Positions 15,314 to 48,182 of a stretch of DNA of 64,000 bases are shown here, one piece after another. The translations under genes and the position numbers were made by a program. A model generated the notes under the pieces. The model was given only the letters and a program-made list of their open reading frames with translations. It had not been told where the DNA came from and made no database searches. Each line of letters begins with the position of its first letter. The stretch's first letter is position 1. Origin of the DNA: Nitrosopumilus sp. (lineage in GTDB: Archaea; Thermoproteota; Nitrososphaeria; Nitrososphaerales; Nitrosopumilaceae). Location: positions 1,792,001 through 1,856,000 of the forward strand of contig OZ250186.1 of NCBI GenBank assembly GCA_965238275.1, in the 5' to 3' direction.

Positions 15314-18300
15314 TCAGGAGTTCTCAAGCACGTACGAGATGGCAGTGACAAACTCGTCCAGGCTAATCTGGTCCTTGGAGAACAGGGTTCCCAGATGCGT
15401 CATCGTCCAGTCAGGAAGGTTTCCATCTGGTTCCAGGCCGAGCGCAGCAAGGAGTTCCCTGTCGGTTGCAGACTCTGGTGCAAACCCGGACCACATGCGG
15501 ATTATCGTTTCAGGCGTGTTTTTGTCTGCTGTGGTGCTGCCAAGCCCAATCACGGGATCCTCAACGGGTTCGGGATCCACGCCAGGCTCGGCTACGGGTT
15601 CAGGATCCACTGCGGACTCTGGTTCCGATACCGCCACCTCAGATACAGGCGTTACCACCTCGAATGCATTCAGGATTCGTACCATTGTAATGGACGCATC
15701 GGTGTTCCACGTCCTGACTACAAGATTGGTCTGTTCCATCTCGTCTTCAAACGTGATACTGAATACGACTATGTGTCTTACCGAATCTGCCTCGCTGGTC
15801 TTGATGGAGACTGTGGCATCTGCGATGAGATCGTGCGGGTCGACTATCCGGATGTTGCCCATGTCATACGTGACGTAGGTGTCGCTGTCCCGGTATTCGG
15901 TGTTCTGTCCGTGCAGGTTCATGTATAGGGTAAAGTGTGCTATTTCTGCGTGGTCATACACGGCAAAGCTGATGGTGTTGGGGACTCCGGTCAGGAGGGT
16001 CTGGGGCTCCAGCGTGTTCAGGCTGCCACCCAGCAGGTAGTGACTGTCGTTTATGGCGATTGCAAAGTTGGACGAGTCACCTGCATTCATGGGGGTTATG
16101 AGCGCATACGGATCATGCGGATTAGTAATGTTGGAGGAATCCACATAGCCCAATGACTGCAGGGAGGCAAGATCCACTGCCGGCGTGGATGTGGAGGAGG
16201 ATGAGCGCTTGCGCGACTGCTTGTTTATTTCCTTGTCAGTAAAGCCTTCCAGAGGATTGCCATCCCCGTCTGCAATATCTCCGGTACCTCTAACATAGCA
16301 GAGTTTCGGGGTGGGGTCATCTGGTATCGTCTCAAGGAATTCCAGCGTGATTGTGGATCCGGATACGTCAACTGTTGACGCTGTAATTAACGTGTCGCAG
16401 ATGGTAAAATCGCCTAGTCCGGTCATGTCTTTCCCGACGGACTCAGAAAGCCTGACGTAGACGGTGCCGGAGTTGTCTATCGTGACAGAGCGCACCGTCG
16501 GGGCCGTGGTGTCAAGGGTGTTTCTCACTGCCTCGTCAAAGCCTGCAAGGGGCTTGCCTTTGAGATCCGTTATGGAGCCGGTGGTGTCGTTGTAGGCTAG
16601 CCGGGGAGAGTCAGAATCAAGCATGCCACCAGACAAGCTCAACGTGATTATATTAGCAAGGGATGTAACGCCACGGATGAGGATGGAAGAGTCGGACACG
16701 ATACCAGATATGGTAAATCCGGTAGTAGTGGTCACGCTCCGCACATTCTCAGACATGTTCACGATTATGGTGTCAGGTTCTCCTGTCTCGATGGAATCTA
16801 CATACGGTGCGACGTATATCTTGACAATCACTTTCAAGATGGCAGTCGCGGTGTTGTCGGAACGGTCAGTACATGTGTAGGTTACAGTATACGTGCTTGG
16901 GGTGGTTGAATTTACCGTGCCAGAAGTGGTGACGGCCCGGACACCGTCAACGTCATCAGTACACGTGACCACAGGATCGGTGTACGCGTCACCCTCGGTT
17001 ATTGTCAGCGGGTTGTCTCCCGGGATGTCGATGACAGGCCGTGTGCTGTCGGGCGTGACAGTAACGCTCTGAGTTGCAGTCACGGTGTTTTTGGAACTGT
17101 CAGTACAGGTATAGGTTACAGTCTGTGGGCCTGGACTGCGTGTATCTACTGCAGAATGCGTGGCAGTCAGGATGCCGTCAACGTCATCAGTACACGTGAC
17201 CGACGAGACGAATGTCGCACCCTGACTTACTGTTACTGCACCAGTGTTGTGAATGACAGGATCGATGTGGTTAGGCGGTGTCAGGCCGATTCGGATATCC
17301 TTGTTGTAGCTAAGCGAACCGATACTTCCTGGTTGGGGTAGCGTTGTTGGGATGGATGTACCATTGCCATACGTCAATGTGTAAGAATTGACATGAAATG
17401 CGTCCGTTCCAGCATACGCAAGGCGAGGAGAATAGTCGTATTTCCCCACACCATACTCAAAGATCAGGGTATCGCTTGCCGATTCCTTGTATACTGCACG
17501 TGCAGGCGGAGTGGTGTCCAGTGCAATGAATGGCAAAAGCGGGTTTATTGGGTAGGCGGGATTTGTAATGTCGATTATCTGGACGCCGTTGTCAAGGTAA
17601 GATGCAACCAGGGCGTAATGTTTGCCTCCAATTTGGGTCGTCGTGACAGAATACGCCGCGTAAAGTTCGTCAAAGCCGCCTGAGCCGTCAGTTATGTTGG
17701 CAGTTGACACGGGGCTTGCAGGGTCGGTTATGTTAATTATCTGGACACCGTCATCGAAATCAGATGCAACTAGGGCGTAATGTTTGCCTCCAATTTGGGT
17801 CGTCGTGACAGAATGCGCCCCGTAAAGTTCGCCAAAGCCGCCTGAGCCGTCAGTTATGTTGGCAGTTGACACGGGGCGGGCAGGGTCGGTTATGTCGATT
17901 ATCTGGACGCCGTCGTCGTTGTAAGCTGCGACCAGGGCGTAATGTTTGCCTCCAATTTGGGTCGTCGTGACAGACCGTGCCCCTTCAAGTTCGCCAAAGC
18001 CGCCTGAGCCTTCAGTTATGTTGGCAGTTGACACGGGGCGGGCAGGGTCGGTTATGTCGATTATCTGGACGCCGCTGTCTCCGTTAGCTGCGACCAGGGC
18101 GTAATGTTTGTCTCCAATTTGGGTCGTCGTGACAGAATACGCCCCGTTAAGTACGCCAAAGCCGCCTGAACCGTCAGTTATGTTGGCAGTTGCCATGGGG
18201 CGGGCAGGGTCGGTTATGTCGATTATCTGGACGCCGCTGTCGGAATCAGATGCAACCAAGGCGTAATGTTTGTCTCCAATTTGGGTCGTCGTGACAGACC

Positions 18301-18844
18301 GTGCCCCTTCAAGTTCGCCAAAGCCGCCTGAACCGTCAGTTATGTTGGCAGTTGCCACGGGGCTGGTAGGGTCGGTTATGTCGATTATCTGGACGCCGCT
18401 GTCTCCGTATGCTGCGACCAGGGCGTAATGTTTGCCTCCAATTTGGGTCATCGTGACAGAATGCGCCCCTTCAAGTTCGCCAAAGCCGCCTGAACCGTCA
18501 GTTATGTTGGCAGTTGCCACGGGGCTGGCAGGGTCGGTTATGTCGATTATCTGGACGCCGTCGTCGCCGTAAGCTGCAACCAAGGCGTAATGTTTGTCTC
18601 CAATTTGGGTCGTCGTGATGGAATATGCCTGAGCAAGCTCGCCAAAACCGTGTCTGCCATCAACGATATTGAATTCTTCAAAGGTTGGGTTTCCTGAAAG
18701 TATCATCCGGACATCAATGGAACCCTCCGTATAGGTGCCATTGGCAGTGTCGGAGGTTACGTTTGCCGACACCTGCGCGTGGGCAGACCCAACCCCCACA
18801 AGGAGCATCCCAAGGCAGAGCATGGCAGGCAGAATGTGGTTCAT
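15314..18844 (-). CDS. Large secreted/surface protein with seven LVIVD repeats (beta-propeller), Ig-like (DUF5011-like) domains and an acidic Pro-rich linker
   Basis: Signal peptide; 7 repeats of about 54 aa containing GVQIIDITDP; two VTCTDDVDG...VTYTCTD modules; EPVAEPGVDPEP linker. Confidence 0.9.
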   Translation of the reverse strand: MNHILPAMLCLGMLLVGVGSAHAQVSANVTSDTANGTYTEGSIDVRMILSGNPTFEEFNIVDGRHGFGELAQAYSITTTQIGDKHYALVAAYGDDGVQIIDITDPASPVATANITDGSGGFGELEGAHSVTMTQIGGKHYALVAAYGDSGVQIIDITDPTSPVATANITDGSGGFGELEGARSVTTTQIGDKHYALVASDSDSGVQIIDITDPARPMATANITDGSGGFGVLNGAYSVTTTQIGDKHYALVAANGDSGVQIIDITDPARPVSTANITEGSGGFGELEGARSVTTTQIGGKHYALVAAYNDDGVQIIDITDPARPVSTANITDGSGGFGELYGAHSVTTTQIGGKHYALVASDFDDGVQIINITDPASPVSTANITDGSGGFDELYAAYSVTTTQIGGKHYALVASYLDNGVQIIDITNPAYPINPLLPFIALDTTPPARAVYKESASDTLIFEYGVGKYDYSPRLAYAGTDAFHVNSYTLTYGNGTSIPTTLPQPGSIGSLSYNKDIRIGLTPPNHIDPVIHNTGAVTVSQGATFVSSVTCTDDVDGILTATHSAVDTRSPGPQTVTYTCTDSSKNTVTATQSVTVTPDSTRPVIDIPGDNPLTITEGDAYTDPVVTCTDDVDGVRAVTTSGTVNSTTPSTYTVTYTCTDRSDNTATAILKVIVKIYVAPYVDSIETGEPDTIIVNMSENVRSVTTTTGFTISGIVSDSSILIRGVTSLANIITLSLSGGMLDSDSPRLAYNDTTGSITDLKGKPLAGFDEAVRNTLDTTAPTVRSVTIDNSGTVYVRLSESVGKDMTGLGDFTICDTLITASTVDVSGSTITLEFLETIPDDPTPKLCYVRGTGDIADGDGNPLEGFTDKEINKQSRKRSSSSTSTPAVDLASLQSLGYVDSSNITNPHDPYALITPMNAGDSSNFAIAINDSHYLLGGSLNTLEPQTLLTGVPNTISFAVYDHAEIAHFTLYMNLHGQNTEYRDSDTYVTYDMGNIRIVDPHDLIADATVSIKTSEADSVRHIVVFSITFEDEMEQTNLVVRTWNTDASITMVRILNAFEVVTPVSEVAVSEPESAVDPEPVAEPGVDPEPVEDPVIGLGSTTADKNTPETIIRMWSGFAPESATDRELLAALGLEPDGNLPDWTMTHLGTLFSKDQISLDEFVTAISYVLENS
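17550..18647 (-). repeat. Intragenic tandem repeat, 162-bp unit, about 7 copies
   Basis: Near-identical units such as GGCGTAATGTTTG(C/T)CTCCAATTTGGGTC recur every 162 bp. Confidence 0.95.
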
Positions 18845-28825: not shown

Positions 28826-29327
28826 CTCAGGCGGAACCGCCGTCAGGACTACTCGTGACGCATGCCAGGCAGGCTATGGAACCGGACTTTCGCCGTGTTT
28901 GCCGGCGGGGGATGTATCAGCACATGCCAGGCAGGGTGCAAATCCTACACATTCGGGATGATTGATGGCGGGCATGTATCTGTGACACACAATGTATCTT
29001 TATTGAACATTTGATTGGTTAATATAAATATTCTATATGGTTGTTTAGAAATTTATCCAAACAGTTTATCAACTGTCTCATGCAACATATGTTATGAGGG
29101 GAGTAGAGATTATCAGAAACATACGTGAAAAGTGCCAGTCATGCATGCAGGCATCAGTGTATTGTGACTGCATATGTTCCTATTGCGGCAGTAAGGAATA
29201 CTGCGAATGCGACGCGCTGCCGCAGCCGATCCTGCCATAATTTTTTTGCGTGGCGGGCAAAATTTTGAGTCAGCGGCTAGAAAAAATTTACCCCTGCTGT
29301 GTAATATCAACTGGGTAAGCATATCTC

Positions 29328-29540
29328 ATGTCTATAATGGAGGCGTACGATTTCAAGGCACGAAAAAAGGTGCCAATAAAAGACCCACAGCCATACCTCA
29401 TGAACAACGGCATGTGGGCAATCAGGGGCACTAGCTCTGAGACTGGAACAACGGTGTTTAGAATTGTCGGAAAGACAAAACCGTCACTGCAACAGTCAAG
29501 ATTCGGTGCATTCAAGAAGATCTTTACGAGCCAAAGATGA
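29328..29540 (+). CDS. Small basic DUF5679-like protein lacking the cysteines
   Basis: MEAYDFKARKKVPIKDP...MNNG.WAIRGTSSETGTTVFRI follows the DUF5679 pattern by eye. Confidence 0.65.
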   Translation: MSIMEAYDFKARKKVPIKDPQPYLMNNGMWAIRGTSSETGTTVFRIVGKTKPSLQQSRFGAFKKIFTSQR

Positions 29541-29560
29541 GAATGCGCAAAATCATGCTA

Positions 29561-31161
29561 TAGTGAAAAGCGAAAGTTCGTGCAATTTTTTGAGATCCTT
29601 TTTAAGAAAATAAATCCCAACTACAGAGACATAATCCGTAATAGGCAGTTTTGGGTCATTTCGTGCCTAGCATCTATTCCCACTTTGTGCCTAACGACTA
29701 ATTACGGATTACGTCTCAGGTATGATTGTCAGTAAAATCATCAAGATAACACAATCTCGGGAACTGTCACGCAAGATCGTGAAATGCTCCCGGGAAACAG
29801 ACATCATTTACGACATGACAATCATGATGAAACTTGCACACTCACGGATCACACAGTTTGATGTCAACAACCTGATAACAGGATGGCGCAGGGAATTCAA
29901 CCTGACCAACAGCGTCCGCATGCATGAGGCCGCCTCAAAACAGGCTTTCCAGGCGGCAGTCAAATTCCGCAAGGCAAACCGGCTCAAGCACAACAAGCGC
30001 ATCTGGCGCAAGAAGCAGATCAAGCTGGGGAAAAAGAAGACGTACAAGCACAATCGGTGGACCGAGCCGTCCAGCCTGATGAGGCGCGGCAGGAAAACAA
30101 CCAGGCTGCGCTCGCTGAATTCACGCGGAAAGCCAAAACTGCGAGACAGTGGGGCGGTATTTCTGCCCGGACTCGGGGAAGCAAGGCCACGCACGAAGGT
30201 TCCAGAAGGCAGGCTCGTGTCGTTCCAGATGATTGACGCCACAGGCAAGGTCACGCGTAAGACCAAGGATGGTGATCGCGAATTCAAACTGCATTTGCAG
30301 ATAGAAGTCCCAGACCCCGAACCCGCGACAGGCGGTGGCCGCGGATGCAAGGCAGGGCTGGATCTTGGAGTCAGGCACCTTGCGGCAGTCGCAGACGAGC
30401 ATGGGAACGAAAAACTGCACAATGTCCCCGGAGGCTGCAAGAGGCATGACGGCGACAGGATTGATCAGCTGAAATCACTTAGATCAAGATGCCAGGCAGG
30501 CTCCAGAAGATGGAAAGAGATCGGCCGCAAGGTAACGCATGAATTGAAAAAGATATCAAACAGGCAAAAACACAACGAGATCGACATTGCCAGGCGGATA
30601 ACAAAAGGACTGTCCGTATTGTTCCTGGAAGACCTGGATTTGACCAAGATGAGGCGATCCTGCGGGGCGGCTTCAAAGACGGGGTTGAACCGCGAGATGG
30701 CCTATTCCAGAATGGGCGAGTTCAGGATCCAGCTTGAATGGCAGATGAAAAAGAAAGGCGGAATTTCAAGACGCGTGGAACACGCACATACAAGCCAGAG
30801 GTGCGCTGCCTGCGGGGTAGTGGACAAGAAATCCAGGAACGGCGAATCATTTGTCTGCGTCTCATGCGGATGGTGCCACCATGCCGACAAGAACGCGGCA
30901 AAAAACATTTTGGATAATGACTGTCTCCATACGGAGGAGACTGGCGGCCAAGCCCACGGGAATCGTGGAGGCACCATTGCAGGTGTCGAGGTCGTCACAA
31001 GGCGCGAGGATCACGGATCGGATGGTTCTGGAATGAACAATTCGACAGGTCGGCTTGGACCCGGCAACGACGACAATATTGGAAGGTCTGACAGAGCGCC
31101 GGAAAGAGCATCAGGACACGCTACAGAGAGATCTGTTTGCACGAACTTTCGCTCGCCGCTA
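29561..31161 (+). mobile_element. tnpB-only element with terminal inverted repeats and flanking TA (copy 1)
   Basis: Left end TAGTGAAAAGCGAAAGTTCGTGCAA (29561-29585) versus reverse-complemented right end TAGCGGCGAGCGAAAGTTCGTGCAA (31137-31161), 21/25 identical; TA at 29559-29560 and 31162-31163. Confidence 0.8.
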
Positions 31162-31164
31162 TAG
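29722..31164 (+). CDS. tnpB: TnpB-family RNA-guided endonuclease
   Basis: RuvC-I GLDLG, RuvC-II FLEDL, zinc ribbon CAACG/CVSCG, RuvC-III HADKNAAKNI. Confidence 0.92.
   Translation: MIVSKIIKITQSRELSRKIVKCSRETDIIYDMTIMMKLAHSRITQFDVNNLITGWRREFNLTNSVRMHEAASKQAFQAAVKFRKANRLKHNKRIWRKKQIKLGKKKTYKHNRWTEPSSLMRRGRKTTRLRSLNSRGKPKLRDSGAVFLPGLGEARPRTKVPEGRLVSFQMIDATGKVTRKTKDGDREFKLHLQIEVPDPEPATGGGRGCKAGLDLGVRHLAAVADEHGNEKLHNVPGGCKRHDGDRIDQLKSLRSRCQAGSRRWKEIGRKVTHELKKISNRQKHNEIDIARRITKGLSVLFLEDLDLTKMRRSCGAASKTGLNREMAYSRMGEFRIQLEWQMKKKGGISRRVEHAHTSQRCAACGVVDKKSRNGESFVCVSCGWCHHADKNAAKNILDNDCLHTEETGGQAHGNRGGTIAGVEVVTRREDHGSDGSGMNNSTGRLGPGNDDNIGRSDRAPERASGHATERSVCTNFRSPL
30923..31161 (+). ncRNA. Putative omegaRNA scaffold overlapping the tnpB 3' end
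   Basis: Hairpins conserved with copy 2 through compensatory changes; GNRA loops; 5' boundary approximate. Confidence 0.65.
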
Positions 31165-31327
31165 TCCTTATTTTTAACCATCAGTAAGCCACATGCTCGG
31201 CCCCCCCCCCAAAGTCGGACACGGCTATTTGCAGGATTCATGCCTGACAGATGCTGTACATGCAATCACGCGTCGTGATCCGTCCGGAATTCGAAACCGT
31301 TAATTTGGCAGTAATGCAACAGAGCAC

Positions 31328-31798
31328 ATGTCATTTGAGATTGACTGGCGAAGTGATTTTTACGGAATCTCATGGGCGTACGAGAAGAGCAGGTTGGTGG
31401 TATCGACGATATTTGAGGACAAGAAGAATGCAGTGGAAGTTGCGATGGACATAGACAGCTGGAGTGACAAGTTCACGCGGATGACAATAATAGAGAGGGA
31501 CAACGGCGAATTTGCAATCTGTTGCTATCAGGACCCCCAGGTAGCAAAGGGCAAAAACCCCATAGGGCTGTTCAGGACAGGAATGATACAGAGCGGCGGA
31601 TACGAACAGGCAAAGCCCATGATTGAGGAGAGGTCCCCCCTGCTACAGATTGCATACGCAGCAGATGTCAGGGATATGAGTACATACGAGCAGATCTCCA
31701 GGCTGGTGCCCATAAGAAAGTGCAGGATAATCTCTGAAAAGGATTTGAAACGGCAGGAATACTATTACGAAAAGGGCGCGTGTGAAAAATCAGCATAG
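31328..31798 (+). CDS. Hypothetical protein
   Basis: 156-aa ORF with natural composition and an upstream TTAATTT box. Confidence 0.7.
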   Translation: MSFEIDWRSDFYGISWAYEKSRLVVSTIFEDKKNAVEVAMDIDSWSDKFTRMTIIERDNGEFAICCYQDPQVAKGKNPIGLFRTGMIQSGGYEQAKPMIEERSPLLQIAYAADVRDMSTYEQISRLVPIRKCRIISEKDLKRQEYYYEKGACEKSA

Positions 31799-31971
31799 GC
31801 TGCATGATCACGGCGACGCAGCTGCCTTTCAGGATGCTGCGGCGCGCCACCACGCCTGCACTCCAACGGGAGGCATGCCCGCCTGACTGCATTGGCATGC
31901 CGTGCTTGGGTTGTAAAGCCAGTCATCATCCAAACCCAATACTTTAATTGAACTTGCAGGACAATGCAATA

Positions 31972-32373
31972 ATGAATTATGACAACCTTTTAAAGAGAAT
32001 CATGGCATCGGACGTGAATATACGGCACAGCATCATTACAGACATCGAGGGAGCCATAAAGGCCACCGGACACCGGGAGGGGATTCGAAACTATCTTTCC
32101 CAGGAGGAGACAGAGGCATCATTGAAGAGGGCCGCATATGCATGGAAACAGAGAAAGCAGCTGTATCCAAAGATTGGAAAGGGGGTATACGCAGTGGCAG
32201 TCTTTGAGAAGATAACAAGGATTACATTTCCTGTGGACGAGGATCATCTGATATTTGTCAGCATGGGGTTTGAGCAGACACGAACGAATCTAGACGCAGG
32301 TGGCCAAAAGCACATCATTGACAACGTGCTGAACATATTGAGCCGTGATCCCACAAGGGGAGTAAGAGTCTAG
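31972..32373 (+). CDS. DUF6659/roadblock-like thaumarchaeal protein
   Basis: IRHSIITD..G....G.REG....LS.EE...IGKGVYAVAVFEKITRITFP pattern; start uncertain. Confidence 0.7.
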   Translation: MNYDNLLKRIMASDVNIRHSIITDIEGAIKATGHREGIRNYLSQEETEASLKRAAYAWKQRKQLYPKIGKGVYAVAVFEKITRITFPVDEDHLIFVSMGFEQTRTNLDAGGQKHIIDNVLNILSRDPTRGVRV

Positions 32374-46547: not shown

Positions 46548-47975
46548 TTATATAGCGGCGAGCGAAAGTTTGTGCAGACAGATTTCTCCGTAACGTCCTA
46601 GTGCCCTTTCTGGCGTTCTGTCAGATCTTCCAAAATCATCGTTGTCGGGTCCAAGCCGACTTGTCAAGCTGTCCTTTGCAGGACTGCCTGAACCGTGATC
46701 CTCGCGCCTTGTGACGACCTCGACATCTGCAATGATGCCTCCACAATCTTTGTGGGCTTGGCCGCCAGTCTCCTCCATGTGGAGACGTCCGTTAGTGAAA
46801 ATGATTTGTGCCGCGCTCTTGTCTGCATGGTGGTGCCATCCGCATGCCGTGCAGACAAATGATTCACTGTTCCTTGATTTCTTGTCCACGGTCTTGCATC
46901 TCATGCACGTCCTGCTCGTGTTCTTGTATTCCACGCGTTTTGGAATCCCGCCCTTCTTTTTCATCTGCCATTCAAGCTGGCCTCGAAACTCCTCAATCCG
47001 GGAGTATGCCATCTCGCGGTTCAGTCCGGTCTTTGATGCCTTTCCGTTGGATCGCCTCATTTTGGTCAAGTCCAGGTCTTCCAAAAACAACACGGACAGA
47101 TTCTTCGTTATCCGTCTGGCAATACCTGTCTCGTTGTGTTTCTGCCTGTCAGATATCTTTTTCAATTCGCGTTTTATCTTGCGGCCGATTTCGCTCCATT
47201 TGCGCGAACCATGCACGCATTTTGACCGGCGTAACTTTAACTGGTCAATCCTGTCACCGTCATGCCGTTTGCAACCGCTGGGAACGTTGTACAGTTTTTC
47301 GTTCCCATGCTCGTCTGCGACTGCCGCCAGGTGCCTTACTCCAAGGTCCAGTCCTGCCATCGAACCGGCCGCCTGTTCGGGGTCCGGAACCTCGATCTGC
47401 AAGTGCAGTTTGAATTCGCGATCACCGTCCCTGATCCTGCGCGTAATCTTCTCTGTGACATCAATCATCTGGAACGACACGGGCCTGCCTTCGGGGATCT
47501 TCGTGCGCGGTCTTACTTCCCCGAGTCCGGGCAGGAATACGGTGTCGTTGTCCCGCAGTTTTGGCTTTCCGCGTGAATTCAGCGAACGCAACCTCGTGAT
47601 TTTTTTGCCCCTCCTCATCAGGCTCGACGGTTCCGTCCACCTGTTGTGTTTGTACGTTTTGGTCTTGTCGAGCCTTATCTGTTTCTTGCGCCAGATACGT
47701 TTTACATGCTTTACTCGGTTTGCCTTGCGGAATTTGGCTACAGCCTGGAATGCCTGTTTTGAGGCGGCCTCATGCATGTGGACGCTGTTGGCCAGGTTGA
47801 ATTCCCCGCGCCATCCAGTTATCAGGTTGTTGATGTCAAACTGCGTGATTCTTGGATGTGCAAGTTTCATCATGATTGCCATGTCGTAAATGATGTCGGT
47901 TTCCAGGGAGCATTTCACGATCTTGCGTGACAGTTCTCGTGATTGTATAATTTTGATGCTTTTGCTGACAATCAT
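46548..47975 (-). CDS. tnpB: TnpB-family RNA-guided endonuclease, paralog of 29722-31164
   Basis: MIVSK start matches copy 1; GLDLG, FLEDL, CMRC/CTAC and HADKSAA motifs. Confidence 0.92.
   Translation of the reverse strand: MIVSKSIKIIQSRELSRKIVKCSLETDIIYDMAIMMKLAHPRITQFDINNLITGWRGEFNLANSVHMHEAASKQAFQAVAKFRKANRVKHVKRIWRKKQIRLDKTKTYKHNRWTEPSSLMRRGKKITRLRSLNSRGKPKLRDNDTVFLPGLGEVRPRTKIPEGRPVSFQMIDVTEKITRRIRDGDREFKLHLQIEVPDPEQAAGSMAGLDLGVRHLAAVADEHGNEKLYNVPSGCKRHDGDRIDQLKLRRSKCVHGSRKWSEIGRKIKRELKKISDRQKHNETGIARRITKNLSVLFLEDLDLTKMRRSNGKASKTGLNREMAYSRIEEFRGQLEWQMKKKGGIPKRVEYKNTSRTCMRCKTVDKKSRNSESFVCTACGWHHHADKSAAQIIFTNGRLHMEETGGQAHKDCGGIIADVEVVTRREDHGSGSPAKDSLTSRLGPDNDDFGRSDRTPERALGRYGEICLHKLSLAAI
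46553..46786 (-). ncRNA. Putative omegaRNA scaffold (copy 2)
   Basis: Hairpins co-vary with copy 1; GCAA and GAAA tetraloops. Confidence 0.65.
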
Positions 47976-48040
47976 GTACACAATAGAACTTGTTTTTTTA
48001 AAAAGGAGGTGCATTGATTGCAGGAACATGCTCTTCACTA
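46553..48040 (-). mobile_element. tnpB-only element with terminal inverted repeats and flanking TA (copy 2)
   Basis: Left end on the - strand TAGTGAAGAGCATGTTCCTGCAA (48040-48018); right end TAGCGGCGAGCGAAAGTTTGTGCA (from 46553); TA at 46551-46552 and 48041-48042. Confidence 0.75.
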
Positions 48041-48182
48041 TAGGAATGGGGCAATTAACTGAATCTTGCGCTTGGCATTATGCGCGTGGGTGTCGTCTGC
48101 TCCAGACAGGTCTGGAAGGGCGGCATTGGCAGATGCAGGAGAATTCATCCACGGAGCGAATCCAGAGTGCTGCCCGGTTCCC

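What the first reader, a model, noticed from the sequence alone, without database searches (positions are those of the whole stretch)
30923..31185. Co-varying omegaRNA hidden in the tnpB C-terminal tail, ending in the right TIR
The roughly 240 nt after RuvC-III are conserved as RNA structure. Copy 1 versus copy 2: CCACG-n5-CGTGG vs CCACA-n5-TGTGG; GCACC-n6-GGTGT vs GCATC-n6-GATGT; GTTC-TGGAAT-GAAC vs GTCCT-GCAA-AGGAC; CAGA-GAGA-TCTG vs CGGA-GAAA-TCTG. The copies differ by a frameshifting indel near the end, and both ORFs only stop at the target site or flank, so the peptide tail seems unconstrained. Inference: the right TIR doubles as the scaffold 3' end, and the guide is the flanking host DNA ((TA)GTCCTTATTTTTAACC; (TA)TAAAAGGGCAAACAAAACC). 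The only shared left-flank motif is C-TA, a candidate short TAM matching a TA-targeting transposase.
Basis: partly seen in the sequence, partly recalled or inferred. Interest (0 to 1): 0.78.

Follow-up and report, generated by a model that had tools for sequence, protein, structure and literature searches.

The report
Guide RNA inside archaeal tnpB tail
The last 240 bases of this transposon nuclease gene fold into a conserved RNA that most likely acts as the nuclease's guide-RNA scaffold, in a mobile element that has the end repeats of an IS630-type jumping gene, an arrangement already reported in surveys but shown here in unusual detail.

Summary
Window 30923-31163 (+), the 3' tail of a 480-aa tnpB, carries a conserved secondary structure. 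On 19 diverged copies from two genomes, 25 of 51 predicted pairs keep pairing through changes on both sides, and 97.8% of cells are paired against 32-45% in slid controls. The structure is sense-strand specific (86 G-U cells) and reaches into the right terminal inverted repeat.

The element is a ~1.5 kb solo-tnpB transposon with about 24 copies. It has 27-nt TIRs and a TA duplication, confirmed by an empty orthologous site. Its TIRs resemble those of resident IS630-family transposons (21-24 of 27). The genome has no Y1 or serine transposase.

The left flank is C before TA at 37 of 37 left ends. The right flank has the mirror G at only 15 of 39, and autonomous IS630 copies have C at 5 of 10. 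This fits a TAM.

The tail's reading frame is kept open, so the peptide is not simply unconstrained. The single-sequence folding energy is not exceptional.

IS630-linked TnpB with symmetric ends is already published (PMC10691335), so this is a new member of a known kind. RNA expression and cleavage are untested.

The parts
29556..29560 (+). Left flank T-G-C plus the left TA of the target duplication. This is the candidate TAM (T/A-N-C-TA).
   Evidence: C at -1 at 37 of 37 left ends. T at -3 in 17 of 21 in this genome. An empty orthologous site holds a single TA.
29559..29585 (+). Left terminal inverted repeat (27 nt, counted with the TA)
   Evidence: It is the inverted match of 31137-31163, 23 of 27 identical as read. 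It matches IS630 TIRs at 17-22 of 27.
29624..29716 (+). 93-nt MITE inserted between the element's promoter-like AT-rich stretch and the tnpB start. It is specific to this copy.
   Evidence: Other copies jump from query position 67 to 158, and the 91-96-nt piece occurs alone at 10 or more other places. An RNA-library contig joins 29623 to 29717.
29722..31164 (+). tnpB ORF, 480 aa, copy 1
   Evidence: Pfam OrfB_IS605 and Cas12f1-like_TNB. NCBIfam guided_TnpB scores 117 bits against a cut-off of 100. D214, E303, D389 and four Cys are invariant in 9 homologs and align to the RuvC motifs of a solved TnpB-like chain.
30923..31163 (+). Predicted omegaRNA scaffold, copy 1. Helices lie at 30923-30941, 30942-48/30991-97, 30954-68, 30970-87, 31001-04/31097-100, 31008-12/31085-89, 31019-44, 31049-65 and 31106-09/31151-54. 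The terminal hairpin is at 31123-36.
   Evidence: RNAalifold and pair counts on 19 sequences. The terminal hairpin is folded at the same place in all 20 sequences.
31137..31163 (+). Right terminal inverted repeat. Its inner half is base-paired within the scaffold, and its last 9 nt are unpaired.
   Evidence: Helix 10 covaries (pair types AU 12, UG 4, GU 2, CG 1 at one pair). An alternative pairing GAAAG:CUUUC is also compatible.
31164..31183 (+). Right flank, the inferred guide segment. The length is assumed, and the guide may instead begin at the TA, 31162.
   Evidence: Sequence differs between all 24 right ends from this base on. It is homologous to the uninterrupted site in a related genome. 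No RNA end data are available.
46551..46786 (-). Predicted omegaRNA scaffold of copy 2, including its right TIR
46548..47975 (-). tnpB ORF of copy 2, from the ATG that aligns with copy 1's start. It is 78% identical in protein to copy 1.
48016..48043 (-). Left TIR of copy 2, with flank base C (48043) and TA (48042-48041)

Best explanation
Window 30923-31163 is the scaffold of a TnpB guide RNA (omegaRNA) on the tnpB sense strand. It belongs to a ~1.5 kb non-autonomous transposon that carries only tnpB between IS630-type 27-nt inverted repeats.

Shown here:
- A conserved multi-helix structure with compensatory changes begins just after the RuvC-III motif and runs into the right TIR.
- TIR bases pair with a segment about 45 nt upstream.
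- The element duplicates TA on insertion.
- It has about 24 copies with different flanks.
- The TIRs resemble those of resident IS630-family transposase genes.

Inferred:
- Transcription from the left end runs through the right end into the flank, and TnpB trims the transcript.
- The 16-20 flank bases after the scaffold serve as the guide.
- The RNP cuts the same locus when it lacks the element. That site has left flank ...C-TA followed by the guide match. In the occupied locus the TIR sits in that position, so the occupied locus is spared.
- Recombination with an occupied chromosome copy then restores the element.
- Movement to new TA sites is done in trans by an IS630 transposase.
- The invariant C (plus T or A at -3) before the left TA is the TAM or part of it.
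For: Covariation:
- 25 of 51 pairs have double-sided changes.
- 97.8% of cells are paired, against 32-45% when partners are slid.
- No shuffle of 500 reached the observed value on 4 of 5 measures.

Strand:
- 86 of 963 cells are G-U, including one pair that is G-U in 19 of 19 sequences. These would be mismatches on the other strand.

Not protein-driven:
- Substitutions at codon positions 1/2/3 are 48/53/117 in the core but 11/14/15 in the tail for copy 1 vs copy 2. They are 59/47/116 vs 8/11/15 for a second pair.
- The TnpB family profiles and solved structures end at about residue 397-400.

Nuclease:
- The nuclease looks intact, with D-E-D and a C4 zinc finger invariant.

Element anatomy and TA duplication:
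-, plus the empty site ...CTGC-TA-GCCATTATTTTTAACC in a related genome.

IS630 link:
- NF033545 scores 175 and 172 bits against a cut-off of 100.
- TIR identity is 21-24 of 27.
- The 99.9%-complete genome has no Y1 or serine recombinase.

TAM:
- C at -1 at 37 of 37 left ends, against G at +1 in 15 of 39 right ends and C at 5 of 10 left ends of autonomous IS630 copies.
- Fisher p is 1e-9 and 2e-4 (computed with 36).

Published frame:
- IS630-linked TnpB with symmetric ends, and solo TnpB moved in trans, are described in PMC10691335 (passages read).
- In Fanzors the 5' TSD is part of the TAM and the 3' TSD lies in the scaffold (review PMC13565253, passages read).
Against: - No RNA with defined ends was seen. 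The only RNA data are assembled contigs from metatranscriptome libraries. They cover the whole element and may include DNA.
- The folding energy of copy 1 alone is not better than shuffles (z -0.95), and the antisense strand scores z -2.11.
- There is no Rfam match.
- The consensus structure was predicted from the same alignment on which pairs were counted. The 19 sequences represent only about five lineages from two genomes.
- The 3' domain has two mutually exclusive pairings.
- The tail's frame is conserved, so some protein-level constraint exists.
- The control set of IS630 ends is small (10 left, 8 right). Within IS630 subfamilies the C preference may itself be uneven.
- A review argues that cut-and-paste DDE elements gain little from such homing (PMC13565253).
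Confidence: 0.85

Rival explanations
1. The conserved structure is a cis-acting RNA element of the tnpB transcript with no guide role. It could be a stabiliser, a translational control or a termination element.
For: The structure is real but no guide function was tested. The ORF runs through it, and in relatives the stop codon sits in the loop of the last hairpin, which could couple translation to folding.
Against: The gene is an intact TnpB, a family whose members use exactly such 3' overlapping RNAs. The structure extends to the last bases of the element, and the left flank shows a TAM-like invariant base. A mere mRNA element would not predict that base.
Confidence: 0.07
2. The hairpins act at the DNA level, as transposase-binding or single-strand hairpin signals like the subterminal hairpins of IS200/IS605.
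For: The region adjoins and includes a transposon end. The antisense strand folds slightly better than shuffles (z -2.11).
Against: - 86 G-U cells, one pair being G-U in all 19 sequences, are not complementary in DNA or on the other strand.
- The element has TIRs and a TA duplication typical of double-strand DDE transposition.
- No Y1 transposase is in the genome.
- The autonomous IS630 copies lack this 240-nt region.
Confidence: 0.03
3. The region is simply a C-terminal protein domain, and the apparent pairs are by-products of coding.
For: The frame is open for at least 68 codons in 18 of 19 sequences. Indels upstream of the stop are multiples of three, and short peptide motifs recur.
Against: - There is no third-position excess in the tail, unlike the core.
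- One stem changes its whole sequence between lineages while staying complementary (helix 8: 9 of 10 pairs with double changes).
- Copy 2 tolerates a frameshift near the end.
- Family profiles and solved structures stop before the tail.
Confidence: 0.03
4. The invariant left-flank C reflects only the target preference of the mobilising IS630 transposase (a C-TA-G type site), not a TAM. The omegaRNA reading stands either way.
For: Autonomous IS630 copies show C-TA and TA-G at about half of their ends (5 of 10 and 5 of 8). The tnpB elements show G at +1 in 15 of 39 and A at +3 in 13 of 24, so a palindromic preference exists. The cognate transposase is not identified with certainty.
Against: A symmetric TIR transposase should give equal preference on both sides, but the left is 37 of 37 and the right 15 of 39 (p about 1e-9). 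A nearly identical TIR has C at 5 of 5 as the left end of tnpB elements but 0 of 4 as the left end of IS630 copies.
Confidence: 0.35

Closest known systems
IS630-associated TnpB (branch 'DDE-6') and solo TnpBs with DDE-type inverted ends, Altae-Tran et al. 2023, PMC10691335 (passages read)
   Same: TnpB lies inside symmetric inverted repeats of IS630 type. The 3' end of tnpB is within 250 bp of the transposon end. Solo copies share ends with transposase-bearing elements and are presumably moved in trans.
   Different: Here no copy carries the transposase or a separate HTH gene in cis. The host is a Nitrosopumilus-like archaeon (record titles). Whether this clade falls in DDE-6 could not be checked because the supplements are closed. 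The RNA structure, the TA duplication and the flank motif are worked out here for this family; I saw none of them in the passages read.
ISDra2 / IS200-IS605 TnpB-omegaRNA (recalled; solved chains 8bf8, 8exa and 8h1j matched)
   Same: The scaffold overlaps the 3' end of tnpB on the sense strand and ends at the right end, with the guide taken from the flank. The TAM lies beside the left end. The D-E-D RuvC triad and the zinc finger are canonical.
   Different: That family has no TIRs and no target duplication, and it is moved by a Y1 TnpA. Here there are TIRs, a TA duplication and no Y1 in the genome. The ORF here overlaps nearly the whole ~240-nt scaffold.
Fanzor1 in Tc1/mariner and other DDE transposons (PMC10530073 and review PMC13565253, passages read)
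   Same: An RNA-guided TnpB relative sits inside a TA-duplicating TIR element, and the guide RNA overlaps the right TIR. In Fanzors the 5' TSD is part of the TAM and the 3' TSD lies in the scaffold, which is the arrangement proposed here.
   Different: Fanzors are eukaryotic or viral, longer, and often have a rearranged RuvC-II glutamate. This protein has the canonical E and an archaeal host.
IS630 family insertion sequences
   Same: TA duplication, a C-TA-G-like target, TIRs of about 27 nt sharing 21-24 bases, and multiple resident copies.
   Different: The element has no DDE transposase. Its cargo is tnpB plus a structured RNA.

Membership tests
TnpB (OMEGA RNA-guided nuclease) | Family profile match above the curated cut-off | tested here: met
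   Pfam PF01385 scores 45.1 (cut-off 30.5) and PF07282 scores 59.9 (cut-off 26.3). NCBIfam NF040570 scores 117.3 (cut-off 100).
TnpB (OMEGA RNA-guided nuclease) | RuvC D-E-D triad and C4 zinc finger | tested here: met
   D214, E303, D389 and C361/C364/C379/C382 are invariant in 9 homologs. They align to GxDxG, xEDL and D-x-NAA of a solved TnpB-like chain.
TnpB (OMEGA RNA-guided nuclease) | RNA-guided, TAM-dependent DNA cleavage | not testable with these tools
   Needs biochemistry.
omegaRNA (reRNA) of TnpB | Sense-strand RNA that overlaps the tnpB 3' end and reaches the transposon's right end | tested here: met
   The structure spans 30923-31163 and ends at the TIR end. G-U cells make up 86 of 963.
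omegaRNA (reRNA) of TnpB | Conserved secondary structure supported by covariation | tested here: met
   25 of 51 pairs show double-sided changes.
omegaRNA (reRNA) of TnpB | Transcript continues 16-20 nt into the flank (the guide) | tested here: inconclusive
   Only contigs from RNA libraries were available. Several run from the element into other flanks, and one ends 16 nt past the right end, but contig ends prove nothing.
omegaRNA (reRNA) of TnpB | Match to a curated RNA family | tested here: not met
   The Rfam 15 E-value scan of 29000-32000 gave only chance-level hits to unrelated families.
omegaRNA (reRNA) of TnpB | TAM adjacent to the left end | tested here: met
   There is an invariant C before TA at 37 of 37 left ends and a subfamily-specific base at -3. 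Function as a TAM is not tested.
IS630-family non-autonomous element | Terminal inverted repeats related to those of IS630 transposase-bearing elements | tested here: met
   Identity is 21-24 of 27. The transposases score NF033545 at 175 and 172 bits.
IS630-family non-autonomous element | TA target-site duplication | tested here: met
   An empty orthologous site with a single TA lies between the two flanks.
IS630-family non-autonomous element | Mobilised by an IS630 transposase in trans | not testable with these tools
   Inferred from the TIR likeness and from the absence of other candidate transposases.
IS200/IS605 (IS1341 group) | No TIRs, no duplication, subterminal hairpins, Y1 transposase | tested here: not met
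   TIRs and a TA duplication are present. PF01797 is absent from the 99.9%-complete genome, while the control genomes scored.
IS607 | Serine recombinase TnpA | tested here: not met
   PF00239 is absent from the genome. NF038280 scores 91 bits, below its cut-off of 350.
Branch DDE-6 of Altae-Tran et al. 2023 | Phylogenetic placement, with an IS630 transposase and an HTH gene in the same element | not tested
No transposase lies in cis in any copy.
Fanzor | Eukaryotic or viral host; often a rearranged RuvC-II glutamate | tested here: not met
   The record titles name archaeal MAGs. The E is at the canonical position.

The most novel reading that the evidence does not exclude
This archaeal TnpB lineage natively lives in IS630 (Tc1/mariner-superfamily) TIR elements with the same logic as eukaryotic Fanzor1. 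The left TA duplication plus a flanking C would be the TAM. The right TIR and right TA would be built into the guide-RNA scaffold. The strict left-flank C (37 of 37, against about half in TnpB-less IS630 copies) would then be a population-level footprint of RNA-guided homing acting on a cut-and-paste DDE transposon in vivo. That would give a prokaryotic model for how Fanzor-type partnerships arose.
Probability: 0.35. Interest if true: 0.65.

Novelty: new member of a known kind. Interest (0 to 1): 0.42.

Why it matters
TnpB guide RNAs are expected at the 3' end of every tnpB, so the RNA itself is ordinary. The setting is what adds value.

This is a high-copy solo-tnpB family on IS630-type ends, with three diverged subfamilies, about 45 copies in two complete genomes, and an empty site. 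Together these give a natural data set for three questions:
- how a guide-RNA scaffold can share sequence with a transposase-binding TIR;
- how a fixed TA duplication is split between the TAM and the scaffold;
- whether RNA-guided homing benefits cut-and-paste DDE transposons, which a recent review treats as open (PMC13565253).

The family also offers compact archaeal nucleases with a short predicted TAM for testing.

Tried and rejected
- **Rfam scan.** The scan of 29000-32000 gave no relevant family.
- **Single-sequence folding energy.** It was not significant on the sense strand (z -0.95) and was slightly better on the antisense strand (z -2.11). I therefore gave it no weight and relied on covariation and G-U pairs.
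- **RNA evidence.** They cover the whole element and cross into other flanks, but they cannot show ends, strand or level and may contain DNA.
- **Metagenome contig scan.** The scan for relatives found none.
- **Pseudoknot.** I looked for pairing between the 3' terminal GCCGC and the invariant GGCGGC. It is not conserved in the other subfamilies (reading), so I rejected it.
- **Scan for further covarying helices.** It gave several conflicting candidates. Only GAAAG:CUUUC looks meaningful, and it competes with helix 10.
- **Possible cognate IS630 copy.** An IS630 copy with the same left TIR as the tnpB element was sought at G000:1082170. Only a left-end fragment is there.
- **Left-flank table.** The first table (G000 left) mixed left and right ends because the search was too loose. 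I redid it.
- **Earlier notes of this scan.** None exist for this genome.
Full report
**What is at the coordinates**

Window 29722-31164 (+) is a 480-aa ORF with the OrfB_IS605 and Cas12f1-like zinc-ribbon domains. It passes NCBI's guided_TnpB model (117 bits, cut-off 100). A second copy lies on the minus strand at 46548-47975. It is 79-89% identical in DNA over the aligned arms and 78% identical in protein.

In nine homologs the residues D214, E303 and D389 and four cysteines are invariant. They align with the RuvC-I, RuvC-II and RuvC-III motifs of solved TnpB-like chains. Profile and structure matches stop near residue 397-400, so the last ~80 codons (30915-31164) have no counterpart in known TnpB proteins.

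So are the 2-nt deletion in copy 2 and the stop codons made with flank bases. Similarity between the copies ends exactly after ...CGCTATA.

**More copies**

The window lies in a 2.22-Mb single-contig genome. That genome holds 24 right ends of this element and 19 close left ends plus diverged ones. Thirteen copies read through all 480 codons without a stop, and copy 2 is open over codons 1-469.

A genome of the same genus (G017) holds about 20 relatives at 44-57% protein identity, in three subfamilies. A third genome holds one at 74%. The tool's record titles call these 'MAG: Nitrosopumilus sp.'.

No relative was found in 59 other related genomes or in the JGI metagenome contigs. In the 5.8-billion-protein set, 25 clusters have at least 44% identity, and identity then drops to 36% or less. 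The lineage is therefore narrow.

**RNA structure**

I aligned the last ~245 nt of 19 non-redundant copies. RNAalifold predicts ten helices with 51 pairs, and 25 of these keep pairing through changes on both sides.

On the pair count, 97.8% of 963 cells are standard pairs. Sliding the partners by 1-3 columns gives 32.5-45.3% paired and only 3-6 pairs with double changes. No shuffle of 500 reached the observed value for four of the five measures, and 26 of 500 did for the fifth.

One stem (31019-31044) has a wholly different sequence in each subfamily yet stays complementary, with 9 of 10 pairs showing double changes. The terminal hairpin (31123-31136) is misregistered in the alignment. Single-sequence folds place it at the same spot in all 20 sequences, with CAGA/TCTG, CGGG/CCTG and CCGG/CCGG or CTGG variants.

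86 cells are G-U, and one pair is G-U in all 19 sequences. This fits RNA of the tnpB sense strand, not DNA and not the opposite strand.

There are caveats. The structure was derived from the alignment on which it was counted. The sequences represent about five lineages. The free energy of copy 1 alone is unremarkable (z -0.95, with the antisense strand at -2.11). Rfam has no match.

**Coding versus RNA constraint**

Between copy 1 and copy 2, substitutions at codon positions 1/2/3 are 48/53/117 in the core but 11/14/15 in the tail. A second pair gives 59/47/116 against 8/11/15. Two closer pairs are less informative: 34/22/70 against 4/0/5, and 25/19/26 against 5/4/2. The tail is therefore not evolving like an ordinary protein segment.

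Even so, the coding frame stays open for at least 68 codons in 18 of 19 sequences. The exception is a decayed copy with a 2-nt deletion. The other two frames carry stops in most sequences. Indels upstream of the stop are multiples of three, although some lie in a GAC/GAT trinucleotide run where slippage alone would give that result.

In G017 and in one diverged copy of this genome, the ORF ends at a TAG in the loop of the last hairpin, 26-32 nt before the element's end. In the main family here that loop is GAGA, so the ORF runs to the TA at the edge or into the flank.

**The element and its ends**

The left end reads TATAGTGAAAAGCGAAAGTTCGTGCAA. The reverse complement of the right end reads TATAGCGGCGAGCGAAAGTTCGTGCAA. 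These form a 27-nt TIR.

The two flanks of copy 1 are adjacent in G017. The sequence there is ...AAAATCCTGC-TA-GCCATTATTTTTAACC..., with a single TA where the element sits here. This fixes the boundaries and shows a TA duplication.

The genome has many IS630-family transposase genes. Two were checked and score 175 and 172 bits on NF033545 against a cut-off of 100. Their TIRs share 21-24 of 27 bases with the tnpB elements' TIRs, and in G017 the match is nearly exact.

The genome is 99.9% complete and has no Y1 transposase or serine recombinase, while the control genomes scored in both searches. The element is thus a non-autonomous IS630-type transposon whose cargo is tnpB. Trans-mobilisation is inferred, not shown.

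**The TIR as part of the scaffold**

Helix 10 pairs GAGC (31106-31109) with GCTC inside the TIR (31151-31154). Where the TIR reads GCGC, the upstream segment reads GCGC or GUGC. An alternative pairing, GAAAG with CUUUC of the TIR, also covaries and excludes helix 10. In either case the inner half of the TIR is paired with scaffold about 45 nt upstream, and the last nine bases are free before the flank.

**The flank motif**

The base before the left TA is C at 37 of 37 left ends. This comprises 22 in this genome (three of them left-end fragments), 14 in G017 and 1 in the third genome. Position -3 is T in 17 of 21 here and A in 9 of 14 in G017.

The mirror base on the right (G at +1) is present in only 15 of 39. 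Autonomous IS630 copies have C at 5 of 10 left ends and G at 5 of 8 right ends. Fisher tests give p = 1e-9 against the right ends and p = 2e-4 against the IS630 left ends (computed with 36 of 36).

I read this as a transposase preference for C-TA-G at about half strength, with a second filter on the left side only. A TAM would predict exactly that. The control set is small, so I put this at about 0.6.

**Expression**

Four metatranscriptome runs from two studies hold the element as contigs. Some contigs continue from the right end into flanks of other copies, and one ends 16 nt past the right end. Contigs cannot show ends or strand, and DNA carry-over is possible, so expression remains unshown.

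**Comparison with what is known**

A 2023 survey (PMC10691335, passages read) already reports three things:
- a TnpB branch linked to IS630 transposases with symmetric ends;
- inverted repeats for all DDE-linked TnpBs, with the 3' end of tnpB within 250 bp of the end;
- solo TnpBs that share ends with transposase-bearing elements.

A 2026 review (PMC13565253, passages read) states that in Fanzors the 5' TSD is part of the TAM and the 3' TSD lies in the scaffold. It calls DDE-OMEGA partnerships in prokaryotes rare.

No paper in the library holds both 'TnpB' and 'Nitrosopumilus'. Whether this clade is the published DDE-6 branch could not be checked, because the supplements are closed.

**Verdict**

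It is a new, well-resolved member of a known kind rather than a new kind.

Noticed in passing
window 29624-29716: A 93-nt MITE with inverted ends GAGAC(A/G)TAATCCGTAAT sits between the AT-rich promoter-like stretch of copy 1 and its ATG. The same piece occurs alone at 10 or more other places in the genome. An RNA-library contig shows the form without it. It may uncouple this copy's tnpB from its promoter.
   Followed up: partly
window 17550-18659: A tandem array of at least six 162-nt units, 83-87% alike. It was not examined.
   Followed up: no
G000:C1:951012-951040 (outside the window): One tnpB element is inserted into the omegaRNA region of another copy. Its right flank is the element's own GGAAGGTCTGACAGAGCGCC segment.
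   Followed up: no
G000:C1:828605 and 2148252 (outside the window): Two copies have their left end replaced by the leader of the diverged copy at G000:501199-502602. This suggests recombination between subfamilies.
   Followed up: no
G000:C1:197768-198110 (L013): One copy carries a 44-nt internal duplication inside the scaffold, which repeats the second and third hairpins.
   Followed up: no
window 31200-31211 and L089 about 1960-2050: Just right of copy 1 there is a C10 run. At the orthologous place in the related genome there is a five-fold repeat of a ~14-nt unit, CCACCCCGCACGCG.
   Followed up: no
G000 genome-wide: There are more than 25 tblastn hits to IS630-family transposases of several subfamilies in a 2.2-Mb genome. 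Together with about 24 tnpB elements, this is a heavy load of TA-inserting elements.
   Followed up: partly
G017:C1:1501066-1502184 and three other places: A second, distant TnpB family (31% identity, 463-aa open frames, four copies) is present in the related genome. Its ends were not examined.
   Followed up: no
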